From an uncultured Hymenobacter sp. (GTDB taxonomy: Bacteria > Bacteroidota > Bacteroidia > Cytophagales > Hymenobacteraceae), in contig CAJYPK010000053.1 of the NCBI GenBank assembly GCA_913776615.1, positions 9,778 through 73,777 on the forward strand: a stretch of 64,000 nucleotides of DNA, written 5' to 3'. The translations under genes were made by a program, and so were the position numbers. Shown here in pieces: positions 16,437 through 20,145 of this stretch. Under the pieces are notes generated by a model. The model was not told where the DNA came from and made no database searches. It saw nothing but the letters and a program-made list of their open reading frames with translations. How positions within the stretch are numbered: the first letter of the stretch is position 1; each line of letters starts with the position of its first letter.

Positions 16437-16576
16437 GAGTGAAAAAGCGTGAAAGGGTGGATTCTACTGGCTTGTACGGCAAGGATAAGCTGGAGGTTAG
16501 GACGGCTAAACTTTCATTTGTGGCCGGCGCGCCCGCAACTTCGCCTTGGGCTGGCCCACCCCGTATTATCCCACTC

Positions 16577-18127
16577 ATGGACGACCTGCGCCTGACGCTC
16601 CAAACCTTATCGCCCGACGATCGCCGCGACCTGGCGCTGTTTATTCAGTGGCAGCGTCGCCGTGCCGCCGGCCGCCAGGATCTGCGCCTGCTGGAGCTGC
16701 TGTTGTGTTCTACGGAGTACAAGACCGAAGAGCTCATCGCCAAGCTCTACCCCGGCGAGCCCAACCCGGGGGCGTACTATACCCTGCGTAAGCGCCTGTT
16801 GCGGCAACTTGCTGATTTTCTGCTGCTGCGCCAGCGACAGCACGATGCCACGGCTGCCACGCCCGTGCGCGGGCAGCTCAGTCTGGCCCAGTATCTCTTC
16901 GACGCCGGGGTGCCGCGCCTGGCCTGGGCCATGCTGCGCAAGGCCGAAAAGCTGGCCCTCGACAACGAGCAGTATGAGCCACTGAATGCCGTCTACAACG
17001 TGCAGATTCAGTACGCCGGCTCGCCCTACGCCGAGCCGCTGGCCGCCATCATCGAGCGCCGCCACCGCAATAAGAAAGCTGCCGACGAGGAGGAGCGGGC
17101 CGGCATCGCCGATGCGCTGCTACGCGAGCGCCTGCGCCAGGCACGCTTGCACGGCCGGGGTGCCGTACCGGTCGATGAGCTGGTGCGCAACGTGCTCGCC
17201 GAGTACGATTTGCAGGAAGCCTTTGCCCGCTCGCCCTCGTTGCTGACGCGGCTGCTCAGCATCGCCCGCAGCGCCATGCTGGTGCGCGGCGACTTTGTTA
17301 CGTTCGCGCCCTTTCTGGAGCGCTGCTACCGGCTCATGGAGCGCCGCCACGGCTTTGCGCCTGCCCACCGGGGCTATCAATTGCGGCTGCTTTACATGCT
17401 GGCCCACGCGCTGTACCGCGCCCGGCGCTTTACCGAGTCGGTGGGCTACCTCGAACAGGCGCAGGCCGTGCTGGCGGCTAGTCCGGGCCGGCAGCACGCC
17501 GAAGCCGGGCCGCGGCTCACGTTCCTGCTGGCCGCCGACTACTCCTTTCTCAACCGCAACCGCGACAGCATCCAACTACTGGAAAATGCTTTGCAGGCCC
17601 AGCCGCCGTTGCTGCCCATTGAGCAACTCACGGCTCGCTTGCAGCTTTCCTTCCACTATTTCGCCGAGGGAAATTTTACCAAGGCCAGCCAGACGCTCAT
17701 TAGCCTCGACCGCTCCGATCACTGGCTGGAGCAGCATATGGGCCTGGAGTGGCTGCTCAACCACAACATTGGCGAGCTGCTTATTCAGCTGGAACTCGGC
17801 AATACTGACGTAGCCCTGGTGCGCCTGCGCACCATCGAGCGGCGGCTGCACGAGCAGTTTCCGGCTACCGAGGCCACGGCCGGGATGCCCGCCAGGCCGC
17901 TGGGTGGCCCCTACCACGCCGTGGTGCGCTATCTCGAACTGGTAGGAGAGATTATTGACGACCCGGCCGTAGCCACCACGCCGGCCTTTGCCCAGCGGGT
18001 AGCGACCATGCCGGCTTTCTTAAATCAGGAAAAAGAAGACTTGCAGATTATCAGCTTTTTCGCCTGGCTGCGGGCGCGGGTGCTGGGCCGGCCCTACTAC
18101 GAGGTGCTGCTGCAAGTGGCGCGCTAG
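16577..18127 (+). CDS. Hypothetical all-alpha (TPR-like) protein, ~516 aa
   Basis: Long ORF from ATG 16577 (MDDLRLTLQTLSPDD...), Leu/Ala-rich helical composition, host-like codon use. Confidence 0.75.
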   Translation: MDDLRLTLQTLSPDDRRDLALFIQWQRRRAAGRQDLRLLELLLCSTEYKTEELIAKLYPGEPNPGAYYTLRKRLLRQLADFLLLRQRQHDATAATPVRGQLSLAQYLFDAGVPRLAWAMLRKAEKLALDNEQYEPLNAVYNVQIQYAGSPYAEPLAAIIERRHRNKKAADEEERAGIADALLRERLRQARLHGRGAVPVDELVRNVLAEYDLQEAFARSPSLLTRLLSIARSAMLVRGDFVTFAPFLERCYRLMERRHGFAPAHRGYQLRLLYMLAHALYRARRFTESVGYLEQAQAVLAASPGRQHAEAGPRLTFLLAADYSFLNRNRDSIQLLENALQAQPPLLPIEQLTARLQLSFHYFAEGNFTKASQTLISLDRSDHWLEQHMGLEWLLNHNIGELLIQLELGNTDVALVRLRTIERRLHEQFPATEATAGMPARPLGGPYHAVVRYLELVGEIIDDPAVATTPAFAQRVATMPAFLNQEKEDLQIISFFAWLRARVLGRPYYEVLLQVAR

Positions 18128-18321
18128 GGGCAGGGCAGGGTCAGCGGTGGTGGGTGAAAGCAATTCGCTACTAGCTGGTTTTTAAGATGCTAGCTGGTCT
18201 ATACTTTGGCCCAACGTACGGTATACACCCAGCCAACACGGTCGCCTATAAACGGCGAACCCCCGGCTGCGACAACAACCGAGGGTTCAAGAAGTGGGTG
18301 CGCTAACACCCTCTCCTAACC

Positions 18322-18441
18322 ATGCAAAGGGAACGTACGCTACGGCTACTCAAAGTGCTCGGCAAAACCATCTTGCTGGGCCTGGTGGGCGGAGCAGCGA
18401 AGGCCATTGGCCAGTTGTTGCTCACTCATTGGCTTGAGTAG
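18322..18441 (+). CDS. Unannotated 39-aa amphipathic/hydrophobic peptide (type I toxin-like candidate)
   Basis: MQRERTLRLLKVLGKTILLGLVGGAAKAIGQLLLTHWLE*. Below the ORF-track cut-off. Preceded by hairpins and followed directly by a plus-strand terminator. Confidence 0.6.
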   Translation: MQRERTLRLLKVLGKTILLGLVGGAAKAIGQLLLTHWLE

Positions 18442-18448
18442 TCGGCGG

Positions 18449-18481
18449 AGAGGTCGGGCCGGGAGGCCCGGCCTCTTTTTC
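18449..18481 (+). terminator. Plus-strand intrinsic terminator after the 39-aa ORF
   Basis: agaggtcgggcc-ggga-ggcccggcctct followed by ttttc. The U-tract is on the + strand only. Confidence 0.8.
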
Positions 18482-18540
18482 GTAGCGCAAATATAACGCG
18501 CTGGTCAGCAGTTTGGTTATGGGTTGCGCGCAGGAAAATC

Positions 18541-20145
18541 TTACAGCTCCTTGCGCAGCCGGGCCACCGGAATGTTGAGTTGCTCGCGGTACTTGGCCAC
18601 CGTGCGGCGGGCGATGTTGTAGCCGCGGGCATTGAGCATCTTTTCCAGCTTGTCGTCGCTCAGCGGGTGGTCCTTTTTCTCGTTGCCGATGAGGTCGCGC
18701 AGAATGCTTTTCACCTCGCGGCTGCTGGCATCCTCGCCCGAATCGGTGGCAATACCTTCGGAGAAGAAAAACTTGAGCGGGTAGATGCCGTGCTCGGTCT
18801 GGATGCTCTTGGAGTTAGCCACCCGGCTCACCGTGCTGATATCCATGCCAATGGCCTGGGCGATATCCTTGAGAATCATGGGCCGCAGCTTCGAGTCGTC
18901 GCCGGTGAGGAAGAATTCCCGCTGGCGCTCCACGATGGCCGACATGGTGCGCAGCAGCGTGTTTTGCCGCTGCCGGATGGCGTCGATAAACCACTTGGCC
19001 GAGTCAAGCTTCTGCTTCACGAAGCTCACGGCCTCCTTCATCTTCTGGTCTTTCTTGGCGGCCTTGTCGTAGGTCTGGAGCATCTCGCGGTAGTCGCGGC
19101 TCACGCGCAGCTCAGGGGCGTTGCGGGCGTTCAGGGTCAGGTTCAGCTCGCCGTTGTCGTTGGTGAGGATGAAGTCGGGCATGAGGTACTGCGCCCCGCC
19201 GGCGCTGCCCTTGCCGCCGCTCACCGGGCCGCTGCCGCCGGGCTTGGGGTTCAGCTTCAGAATAACGGCCACCGCTTCCTTCAGCTCGTCGTCCTCTAGG
19301 TCGAGCTTCTGCTGAATGCGCTGGTAGTGCTTCTTGGTAAATTCCTCGAACGTCTCGGTCAGAATGCGCTCGGCATTCTGGGTGGCCTCGTCCTGGGGGC
19401 GGCGCTCGAGTTGCAGCAGCAGGCACTCGGGCAGGTCGCGGGCGGCGATACCCGGCGGGTCGAACTGCTGAATGACGTGCAGCACCTGCTCAATCTCGGC
19501 CTCGCTCACCTCAATGTTCTGGCTGAAGGCCAGATCATTGGCAATGGCCGCCAAATCGCGCCGAATGTAGCCGTCGCCGTCAATCGAGCCGATAAGCTGC
19601 TCGCCGACGGCCTGCTGCCGCTCGTCGAGCTGGGCAAAGTGCAGCTGGTCGAGGAGCGAGTCTTGCAGCGAGCCGCTGGTGTCGGCCAGCGGCATGTCGC
19701 GCTCCTCTTCGTCGCCGGGGCCGTCGCCCTGCATTTTGTAGCCCGCAATCTCGTCGTCGTTGACGTACTCGCTGATGTCGATTTCGTGGTTGTCGTTGTC
19801 GATGCCCAGCGCCTCGGGCTCGGCCGGCTCGGGGCGCTCATCGGCGTACTCGTCGGGGCCGGCGCTGTCGTCGCTGGCCTCGGCGGGGCTAAAGTCCTCG
19901 TCCAGCGTGCTGTCGTCGCTGTCGAGCGAGTCGTTGGGGTCCTCGGCGTCGGGGGTGTCGTCGGCGCTGTCGTCGCGGTCGTCGGCCTCGTCGCTGTCGC
20001 CTTCTTCCAGGGCCGGGTTCACCTCCATCTCCTCCTTGATGCGCGTTTCGAGCTCGGCCGTCGGGATTTGCAGCAGCTTGATGAACTGAATCTGCTGGGG
20101 AGAAAGGCGCTGCGAAAGAAGCTGTTTTAAATCAAGGCGTTGCAT
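18541..20145 (-). CDS. rpoN: RNA polymerase sigma-54 factor
   Basis: Region I LSQRLSPQQIQFIKLLQIP, acidic region II, HTH DISTVSR, RpoN box ARRTVAKYRE. Confidence 0.98.
   Translation of the reverse strand: MQRLDLKQLLSQRLSPQQIQFIKLLQIPTAELETRIKEEMEVNPALEEGDSDEADDRDDSADDTPDAEDPNDSLDSDDSTLDEDFSPAEASDDSAGPDEYADERPEPAEPEALGIDNDNHEIDISEYVNDDEIAGYKMQGDGPGDEEERDMPLADTSGSLQDSLLDQLHFAQLDERQQAVGEQLIGSIDGDGYIRRDLAAIANDLAFSQNIEVSEAEIEQVLHVIQQFDPPGIAARDLPECLLLQLERRPQDEATQNAERILTETFEEFTKKHYQRIQQKLDLEDDELKEAVAVILKLNPKPGGSGPVSGGKGSAGGAQYLMPDFILTNDNGELNLTLNARNAPELRVSRDYREMLQTYDKAAKKDQKMKEAVSFVKQKLDSAKWFIDAIRQRQNTLLRTMSAIVERQREFFLTGDDSKLRPMILKDIAQAIGMDISTVSRVANSKSIQTEHGIYPLKFFFSEGIATDSGEDASSREVKSILRDLIGNEKKDHPLSDDKLEKMLNARGYNIARRTVAKYREQLNIPVARLRKEL

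What the first reader, a model, noticed from the sequence alone, without database searches (positions are those of the whole stretch)
18190..18481. Hidden 39-aa amphipathic peptide with a structured leader and dedicated terminator (type I toxin-like)
Seen: ORF 18322-18441 (MQRERTLRLLKVLGKTILLGLVGGAAKAIGQLLLTHWLE) is cationic and hydrophobic with a C-terminal Trp, and is missed by the ORF track. Its ~110-nt leader has tcgcc/ggcga (18242-18258), gaacccccgg/ccgagggttc (18257-18288, overlapping the first hairpin) and gggtg/caccc (18296-18311) just before the ATG. A terminator with a plus-strand-only U-tract follows 7 nt after the stop, and ctagctggt occurs twice upstream. Established: type I toxins such as Fst/Ldr and Hok are 30-50-aa membrane peptides with highly folded mRNAs silenced by antisense RNA. 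Inference: a Bacteroidota type I TA locus or a modulin-like peptide next to rpoN. I could not find a clean antisense promoter.
Basis: partly seen in the sequence, partly recalled or inferred. Interest (0 to 1): 0.65.

Follow-up and report, generated by a model that had tools for sequence, protein, structure and literature searches.

The report
Multicopy antisense-controlled small membrane peptide gene
The flagged stretch is one of 13 copies in this Hymenobacter genome of a 290-base module that encodes a tiny membrane peptide on a tightly self-folded messenger RNA and is faced by a conserved opposing promoter. This is the layout of an RNA-controlled (type I) toxin-antitoxin system, a class not yet described in the phylum Bacteroidota, but transcription and toxicity have not been tested.

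Summary

- **Copy number and range:** the unit has 13 copies in this genome. It occurs in 41 of 52 genomes sampled from the genus, at 1-13 copies each. It was not found in 21 other families of the order.
- **Coding:** the ORF is a real gene. 84 of 97 elements keep an ATG ORF at the aligned position, and substitutions follow codon position 3 > 1 > 2.
- **Peptide:** at least seven peptide types (37-50 aa; basic N-terminus, hydrophobic C-terminal helix) sit behind one conserved leader.
- **Leader RNA:** it is a plus-strand structure with strong covariation. One long-range helix pairs the transcript's 5' end with codons 5-6 and encloses the start codon.
- **Antisense promoter:** It is exact in 58 of 97 elements.

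Best reading: a new family of type I toxin-antitoxin-like modules. No Pfam, NCBIfam, Rfam or PDB match was found. Earlier follow-ups in this scan reported similar modules on other DNA, from different families.

The parts
18200..18208 (+). Sense promoter -7 box. It is imperfect in this copy: TATACTTTG carries a 1-nt insertion relative to TATCTTTG in the nearest relative. The predicted transcription start is about 18213.
   Evidence: A TAnnTTTG box with at most 1 mismatch sits at this aligned position in 86 of 97 elements. The alignment with the G085 ortholog shows the insertion. The start position is taken from the -12 to -5 placement of the box given in PMC6847099 and PMC9723704.
18215..18220 (+). 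P0a, 5' strand (CGTACG). This long-range helix pairs the 5' end of the mRNA with codons 5-6.
   Evidence: Seen in the fold. 94% of cells are paired and 5 of 6 pairs show compensatory changes. RNAalifold predicts it independently on an alignment that was not fitted to the structure. G-U versus A-C counts are 53:14, which favours the plus strand.
18334..18339 (+). P0a, 3' strand (CGTACG, codons Arg5-Thr6).
18241..18258 (+). P2 hairpin (CGCC/GGCG stem, A-rich loop TATAAAC).
   Evidence: 86% of cells are paired and 3 of 4 pairs show compensatory changes. G-U versus A-C counts are 56:14, which favours the plus strand.
18257..18288 (+). P3 hairpin (GAACCCCCGG / CCGAGGGTTC). On the minus strand its complement, followed by the T-rich complement of the P2 loop, is a candidate terminator for the antisense RNA.
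   Evidence: About 95% of cells are paired, with compensatory changes. Pairs are almost all Watson-Crick, with G-U versus A-C at 20:34. A minus-strand terminator-like site at this position was scored in most of the 97 elements.
18289..18317 (+). P4 two-part hairpin. The lower stem is AGAAG/CTTCT-like and the upper stem is GGGTG/CACCC. It ends a few bases before the start codon.
   Evidence: 89% and 98% of cells are paired, and 9 of 10 pairs show compensatory changes.
18322..18441 (+). Gene for a 39-aa peptide (type A), with a basic N-terminus and a hydrophobic C-terminal helix ending in His-Trp.
   Evidence: Codon-position entropy is 0.88/0.58/1.26. AlphaFold2 predicts a single helix over residues 3-38 with pLDDT 84. 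Net charge is +4 and the best 19-residue Kyte-Doolittle window scores 1.67.
18343..18353 (+). P5, 5' strand (codons 8-11). It pairs with 18434-18444 around the stop codon. This helix is specific to type A elements.
   Evidence: observed mean helix length 7.6 bp against 5.2 bp in cross-family controls.
18434..18444 (+). P5, 3' strand (spans the stop codon TAG).
18446..18481 (+). Intrinsic terminator of the peptide mRNA (14-bp GC-rich stem followed by TTTTT).
18488..18495 (-). Antisense promoter -7 box (TATATTTG on the minus strand). The predicted antisense start is about 18483.
   Evidence: The box is conserved in all 13 copies of this genome: 12 match CAAAnnTA exactly and one reads TAAAGGTA. 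It is exact in 58 of 97 elements at +281 to +336; about 2 such motifs would be expected there by chance. The position profile gives TATATTTG.
18245..18483 (-). Candidate antisense RNA (inferred). The 5' end is set by the promoter. The 3' end is uncertain and may lie after the complement of P3.
   Evidence: Inferred. No transcript data are available.

Best explanation
The locus is one copy of a Hymenobacter-specific family of type I toxin-antitoxin-like modules.

**Sense transcript.** A Bacteroidota sigma-A promoter drives a plus-strand mRNA of about 270 nt. This mRNA encodes a 39-aa cationic peptide predicted to form a single helix, which is probably membrane-active and toxic when overproduced.

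**Translational lock.** The mRNA's 5' end pairs with codons 5-6 (P0a). Together with the P4 helix just upstream of the AUG, this boxes in the initiation region. Bacteroidota do not use Shine-Dalgarno sequences and their initiation is tuned by local mRNA structure, so this fold should keep translation low. In type A copies a further helix joins codons 8-11 to the stop codon.

**Antisense transcript.** A conserved convergent -7 promoter just past the terminator should drive an antisense RNA. That RNA would begin opposite the mRNA's 3' end and run back across the ORF, possibly as far as the complement of P3. It would pair with the mRNA to block translation or trigger its decay.

**Shown here:** multicopy conservation, coding selection, the plus-strand RNA structure, conservation of both promoter motifs, and the helical, cationic and hydrophobic nature of the peptide.

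**Inferred:** that both RNAs are made, that the antisense RNA represses, and that the peptide is toxic.
For: - **Copy number:** 13 full-length copies in this genome. The family is present in 41 of 52 genomes of the genus and in 5 of 11 of a neighbouring GTDB genus that NCBI also names Hymenobacter.
- **Vertical inheritance:** the TPR-element-rpoN locus is syntenic in four other species.
- **Coding:** the ORF is kept at the aligned ATG in 84 of 97 elements. Codon-position variability follows 3 > 1 > 2 in every peptide type tested.
- **RNA structure:** 87.5% of cells are paired against 74% in shuffles and at most 46.5% in slid controls, and 30 of 35 pairs show compensatory changes. RNAalifold recovers P0a, P2, P3 and P4 on an alignment that was not fitted to the structure. 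The excess of G-U over A-C in P0a and P2 places the structure on the plus strand.
- **Promoters:** the minus-strand TAnnTTTG box is exact in 58 of 97 elements within a 60-nt zone after the terminator. The sense box has at most 1 mismatch in 86 of 97. The motif and its -12 to -5 placement are taken from PMC6847099 and PMC9723704.
- **Peptide:** one helix with pLDDT 84, net charge +3 to +10, and a hydrophobic C-terminal half.
- **Decay:** 21 of the 97 elements lack an intact ORF of at least 36 aa (premature stop, frameshift or lost ATG), as is usual for toxin genes.
- **Not an attenuator:** the neighbour downstream is convergent in 9 of 13 copies, so the leader does not control a downstream gene.
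Against:
- Toxicity is untested.
- The type D elements (49-50 aa) lack the 3' antisense box even when longer flanks are read. The antisense gene is therefore not universal in the family.
- In the window copy the sense -7 box carries a 1-nt insertion, so this particular copy may be weakly expressed.
- The candidate antisense terminator is weak in this copy (tail GCCGTTTAT).
- The P0b helix is poorly supported, with 51% of cells paired.
- The covariation counts come from an alignment fitted to the model, and the sequences are related to one another.
- The peptide has no sequence similarity to any known toxin family.
Confidence: 0.6

Rival explanations
1. The peptide is a non-toxic small membrane protein family, for example stress-induced modulators of membrane proteins. 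The folded leader and the antisense promoter would only tune its expression, with no toxin-antitoxin relationship.
For: Coding selection and conserved membrane-peptide features fit any small membrane protein. Type D copies do without the 3' antisense promoter. Many intact copies coexist in one genome. The best Kyte-Doolittle scores of the hydrophobic segment, 0.9-2.0, are borderline for a transmembrane helix in several types.
Against: The combination of a tight translational lock, a convergent antisense promoter, multicopy dispersal and frequent ORF decay is the signature of type I toxins. Ordinary small membrane proteins usually lie in operons with their partners; these are solitary genes with their own promoter and terminator.
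Confidence: 0.25
2. The conserved leader is chiefly a sensor RNA (riboswitch-like, thermosensor or protein-binding element). It would open the P0a/P4 lock in response to a signal, and the antisense promoter would be secondary or inactive.
For: The leader is better conserved at the DNA level than the ORF. It forms a multi-helix junction with conserved unpaired stretches such as GCCAAC, GAA and AAGAAG. The same leader fronts at least seven different peptides.
Against: No Rfam family matches, even at E up to 10. No alternative mutually exclusive fold was identified. The closing helix uses coding sequence, which is unusual for riboswitches (stated from general knowledge). This reading does not explain the conserved minus-strand -7 box. 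It can also coexist with the best explanation.
Confidence: 0.1
3. The unit is a mobile or selfish repeat (MITE-like), or a decaying relic, and the ORF, hairpins and boxes are incidental.
For: The unit is multicopy, dispersed and intergenic. Some copies are decayed.
Against: The ORF shows a codon-position selection pattern. Covariation maintains the helices. The same locus is kept between TPR and rpoN across species whose flanking TPR protein is only 72-74% identical. No terminal inverted repeats or target-site duplications were seen in the copy alignment, and sequence similarity stops at the two promoter boxes.
Confidence: 0.03

Closest known systems
bsrG/SR4 and txpA/RatA of Bacillus subtilis (type I toxin-antitoxin systems with a convergent, 3'-overlapping antisense RNA; bsrG/SR4 from PMC3834814, txpA/RatA from general knowledge)
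   Same: A small membrane peptide gene has its own promoter and terminator. A convergent antisense promoter lies just beyond the toxin gene's 3' end, so the two RNAs overlap from the 3' end. The toxin mRNA is folded so that its initiation region is sequestered.
   Different: There is no sequence similarity in peptide or RNA. The host phylum does not use Shine-Dalgarno sequences, so the lock is a helix between the 5' end and codons 5-6 plus an upstream hairpin, and not an SD-sequestering stem. The hydrophobic helix is C-terminal and the N-terminus is basic. The predicted antisense RNA may cover the whole ORF. Nothing has been tested experimentally.
hok/sok (plasmid R1 and E. coli chromosomes) and aapA1/isoA1 (Helicobacter pylori); comparison from general knowledge
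   Same: The toxin mRNA is made translationally inert by long-range pairing that involves its 5' end. The families are multicopy on chromosomes and many copies are decayed.
   Different: In those systems the antisense RNA overlaps the 5' region and activation needs 3' processing. Here the conserved promoter is at the 3' end, no processing is known, and there is no homology.
ibs/Sib of E. coli; comparison from general knowledge
   Same: Multicopy modules in which the antisense RNA is complementary to the whole small ORF, if the antisense RNA here ends at the complement of P3.
   Different: Ibs peptides are 18-19 aa and unrelated. The extent of the antisense RNA here is only inferred.
msoT1/msoA1 of Microcystis aeruginosa (PMC12390103)
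   Same: A candidate type I system found outside Proteobacteria, Firmicutes and Tenericutes by anatomy and not by homology.
   Different: It belongs to a different phylum and family. That system has toxicity data in E. coli, and this one has none.

Membership tests
Type I toxin-antitoxin systems (class) | Toxin gene encodes a small (under about 60 aa) hydrophobic or membrane peptide | tested here: met
   The ORF is 39 aa, and the family ranges from 37 to 50 aa. It is under coding selection. It is predicted to form a single helix with a hydrophobic C-terminal half and a net positive charge.
Type I toxin-antitoxin systems (class) | A cis-encoded antisense RNA gene overlaps the toxin mRNA | tested here: inconclusive
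   A conserved minus-strand -7 promoter box lies just past the terminator, and a candidate minus-strand terminator exists. No transcript data could be obtained, and type D elements lack the box.
Type I toxin-antitoxin systems (class) | Toxin mRNA is highly structured, with its translation initiation region kept inaccessible | tested here: met
   P0a (5' end with codons 5-6) and P4 flank the AUG, and both are supported by covariation. The fold z-score is -5.1.
Type I toxin-antitoxin systems (class) | The peptide is toxic on overexpression and is neutralised by the antisense RNA | not testable with these tools
   This needs expression experiments.
Known type I toxin protein families in Pfam (from general knowledge these include Hok/Gef, Ldr, Fst, TisB and Ibs) | Sequence match to the family profile | tested here: not met
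   No Pfam hit at E up to 10 for eight peptide types. No significant NCBIfam hit; the best was E 0.073, far below the curated cut-off. No meaningful PDB match.
Known RNA families (Rfam 15), including antitoxin and toxin-leader RNAs | Covariance-model match above the gathering score | tested here: not met
   The best hits (ar35 at 22.6 bits, sar at 19.7 bits) are far below their gathering scores and are terminator or hairpin look-alikes.
bsrG/SR4-type layout | A convergent antisense promoter gives a 3'-end overlap | tested here: met
   The -7 box lies 8-20 nt beyond the terminator T-tract and points back into the gene. This is met at the level of sequence motifs only.
bsrG/SR4-type layout | A Shine-Dalgarno-sequestering stem is extended on antisense binding | tested here: not met
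   No SD-like sequence was seen upstream of the AUG in the aligned copies. Bacteroidota mRNAs lack SD sequences (PMC6847099).

The most novel reading that the evidence does not exclude
This would be the first type I toxin-antitoxin superfamily of the phylum Bacteroidota. Its translational lock would not depend on a Shine-Dalgarno sequence, relying instead on a helix between the transcript's 5' end and codons 5-6. One conserved, recombining leader and antisense scaffold would carry at least seven interchangeable toxin peptide cassettes. Over 170 leader matches were recorded in the 151 genomes searched at family level.
Probability: 0.45. Interest if true: 0.7.

Novelty: new member of a known kind. 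Interest (0 to 1): 0.6.

Why it matters
According to PMC12390103 (2025), type I toxin-antitoxin systems have been identified only in Proteobacteria, Firmicutes and Tenericutes, plus that paper's own cyanobacterial candidate. The authors attribute the narrow range to homology-biased search methods.

- **Wider range:** a well-defined, covariation-supported family in Hymenobacter would extend the class to Bacteroidota.
- **Mechanism:** it would show how such a module is locked in a phylum that initiates translation without Shine-Dalgarno pairing.
- **Resources:** it would add an uncatalogued structured RNA family and at least seven unannotated small-protein families. All database members found are labelled 'hypothetical protein'.
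- **Evolution:** the shared leader with swapped peptide cassettes is a natural experiment in modular toxin evolution.

Tried and rejected
- **Rfam:** the scan at E up to 10 gave only sub-threshold hairpin look-alikes.
- **Sigma-70 promoter scan:** it found nothing, as expected for Bacteroidota. The TAnnTTTG motif was used instead.
- **Peptide search:** A profile of type A peptides was used instead.
- **Structural alignment:** mafft-qinsi was not installed. Structural alignment was done with a covariance model.
- **P0b helix:** this helix (18228-18230 / 18329-18331) was proposed from the fold, but only 51% of cells are paired. It is not claimed.
- **Leader to 3'-UTR pairing:** a possible pairing between the conserved leader GCCAAC and the 3'-UTR GTTGG was noticed by eye. 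It was not tested and is not claimed.
- **Intact ORF versus antisense box:** the association (odds ratio 4, p = 0.01) is confounded. The sequences are related, and the type D elements lack the box. It is not used as evidence for addiction.
- **Attenuator or leader-peptide reading:** rejected. The ORF lies after the leader and is followed by its own terminator, and the downstream gene is convergent in 9 of 13 copies.
- **Mobile-element reading:** rejected.
- **Minus-strand ORFs:** not supported. The periodicity fits the plus frame.

Full report
**Observation.** The intergenic gap between a TPR protein gene (16439-18127, +) and rpoN (18541-20145, -) was identified. It holds the 39-codon ORF 18322-18441. 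The putative transcript 18212-18481 folds far better than shuffles (-123.5 kcal/mol, z = -5.1). The duplicated ctagctggt is real. It is near chance level and is shared only with the closest relative.

**A multicopy module.** A DNA search, a six-frame protein search and an iterated nhmmer search of the window's own genome found 13 full-length copies of a unit of about 290 nt. All 13 lie in intergenic gaps scattered over 10 contigs, and the downstream neighbour is convergent in 9 of 13. Aligning the copies showed a fixed order of parts:
- a TAnnTTTG box;
- a conserved leader of about 110 nt;
- a small ORF;
- a terminator;
- a conserved CAAAnnTA box.

The last box is the reverse complement of TAnnTTTG. 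That sequence is the -7 element of the Bacteroidota primary sigma factor and occupies positions -12 to -5 (PMC6847099, PMC9723704). The sigma-70 scan also finds none, because this phylum uses a different consensus.

**Distribution.** Database hits to the peptide name the genus Hymenobacter.
- A covariance model of the leader plus the first ten or so codons (R1) recovers exactly the 13 copies in this genome.
- The same model finds 1-13 copies in 41 of 52 sampled genomes of the genus. It also finds copies in 5 of 11 genomes of a neighbouring GTDB genus that NCBI names Hymenobacter as well, for example H. gummosus.
- It found nothing in 142 genomes from 21 other families of the order.
- An exact scan for the leader-core pattern over 185,579 species genomes gave 62 hits. 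Sixty are named Hymenobacter. The other two are metagenome-assembled contigs, one labelled 'Bacteroidota bacterium' and one labelled Janthinobacterium, which is probably a binning error.
- The TPR-element-rpoN locus is syntenic in four other species. Copies are therefore inherited vertically, and some decay in place.

**The ORF is a gene.** In a model-based alignment of 97 elements, 84 have an ATG ORF of at least 25 aa at or within a few bases of the aligned start. At least seven peptide types of 37-50 aa follow the same leader. All start with a basic M-x-K-x-R-A-K-like N-terminus. Most end in a hydrophobic segment rich in Gly, Ala and Ser, often with His plus an aromatic residue at the C-terminus. 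Nucleotide variability follows codon position 3 > 1 > 2 in every type tested; for type A the entropies are 0.88, 0.58 and 1.26. AlphaFold2, run on the window peptide aligned with 57 database relatives, predicts one continuous helix over residues 3-38 with mean pLDDT 84. Net charge is +3 to +10, and the best 19-residue hydrophobic window scores 0.9-2.0 on the Kyte-Doolittle scale. There is no match in Pfam, NCBIfam or PDB sequences. The 74 related clusters found in the protein collection carry either no name or 'hypothetical protein'.

**The leader is a structured plus-strand RNA.** Across the 97-element alignment, 87.5% of pair cells are standard pairs. The figure is 74% in column shuffles and at most 46.5% when partners are slid. 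Thirty of 35 pairs show compensatory double changes. The supported helices are:
- **P0a:** 18215-18220 pairs with 18334-18339, joining the transcript's 5' end to codons 5-6. Variants include CGTACG/CGTACG, CGCACG/CGTGCG, CGCGTT/AACGCG and TCGCG/CGCGA, already visible among the 13 paralogs.
- **P2, P3 and P4:** P4 is extended by a lower AGAAG/CTTCT stem.

RNAalifold on a plain MAFFT alignment recovers P0a, P2, P3 and the upper part of P4 without any input from me. G-U pairs outnumber A-C mismatches 53:14 in P0a and 56:14 in P2, so these helices form in the plus-strand RNA. P3 and P4 are almost purely Watson-Crick, which would let them fold on either strand. P0b is weak (51% paired) and is not claimed. 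In type A elements, including the window copy, a further helix of 7-11 bp joins codons 8-11 (18343-18353) to the stop-codon region (18434-18444). The AUG therefore sits in a short linker between P4 and P0. Bacteroidota lack Shine-Dalgarno sequences and tune initiation by local structure (PMC6847099), so this fold is expected to hold translation down.

**The antisense promoter.** CAAAnnTA occurs 60 times within +280 to +339 of the 97 elements, in 58 of them, and only 14 times anywhere else in these sequences. About 2 would be expected in that zone by chance. The profile reads TATATTTG on the minus strand, and the complement of the terminator T-tract lies 8-20 nt downstream of it. In the window the box is at 18488-18495, which predicts a minus-strand start at about 18483, directly opposite the 3' end of the mRNA. 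A terminator-like site on the minus strand was scored in most of the 97 elements. It consists of the complement of P3 followed by the T-rich complement of the P2 loop. If this site is used, the antisense RNA is about 235 nt long and covers the ORF, the AUG, P4 and P3. In the window copy the tail of this site is weak.

**Caveats.**
- No transcript data could be obtained, and toxicity is untested.
- Type D elements (49-50 aa) lack the 3' box even when 640-nt loci are read.
- The sense -7 box of the window copy has a 1-nt insertion relative to its nearest ortholog.
- Twenty-one of the 97 elements lack an intact ORF of at least 36 aa.
- The association between an intact ORF and the antisense box is confounded and is not used.
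- The covariation counts rest on a model-fitted alignment of related sequences, although one search gives an independent check.

**Comparison with known systems.** The layout matches type I toxin-antitoxin systems with a convergent 3'-overlapping antitoxin, such as bsrG/SR4 (PMC3834814) and, from general knowledge, txpA/RatA. The 5'-end lock recalls hok and aapA1 mRNAs (also from general knowledge). The locus belongs to none of the catalogued toxin or RNA families. PMC12390103 states that type I systems are so far known only from Proteobacteria, Firmicutes and Tenericutes, plus its own cyanobacterial candidate. A full-text literature search for Hymenobacter with antisense RNA, toxin-antitoxin or small RNA listed no Hymenobacter paper among the 12 top-ranked results. 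Earlier follow-ups in this scan reported comparable multicopy toxin-antisense modules on other genomes. None matches this sequence.

**Verdict.** The locus is a new member of a known kind: a type I toxin-antitoxin-like module in a phylum where none is described. Confidence in the mechanism is 0.6, and interest is 0.6.

Noticed in passing
window 18200-18208: The sense -7 box of this copy reads TATACTTTG, with a 1-nt insertion relative to the exact TATCTTTG in the nearest relative's orthologous copy. This copy may be transcribed weakly.
   Followed up: partly
G000 C59:30248-30543 compared with window 18204-18354: Leader and ORF appear to be shuffled modules. The window leader is about 80% identical to the leaders at C40:11293 and C59:30248. 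However, C59:30248 encodes a 44-aa type B peptide, while the window encodes a 39-aa type A peptide.
   Followed up: partly
L181-L189 and L191 (type D elements of other Hymenobacter genomes): Type D elements (49-50 aa, ending AAARHWxG) have no antisense -7 box after the terminator. They do keep a nucleotide-conserved CTTCG[CT]AAACCTATACC inside the ORF, with Ile always encoded by ATA. On the minus strand this reads TAGGTTTG in 4 of 10. It could be a poor internal antisense promoter or an RNA pairing site.
   Followed up: partly
L204 (JBPBPC010000040.1, labelled MAG: Janthinobacterium lividum): The Hymenobacter-specific leader core occurs on a 16.9-kb contig of a metagenome bin labelled Janthinobacterium. 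This is probably a binning contaminant.
   Followed up: no
L034 (G058) and L032 (G069), orthologs of the window locus: At the same TPR-rpoN locus, the element is truncated after the leader in G058 and the ORF is frameshifted near its end in G069. This shows decay of individual copies in place.
   Followed up: partly
G000 C40:11293-11574: The paralog with the leader most like the window's has a TAG at codon 8 (MKGKPAL*). Relatives with the same peptide type (L037, L040) read on to 39 aa. Its antisense box is intact.
   Followed up: no
window 18496-18540: No intrinsic terminator was found for rpoN between its stop codon (18541) and the element. Read-through from rpoN would therefore also run antisense into the peptide gene.
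   Followed up: no
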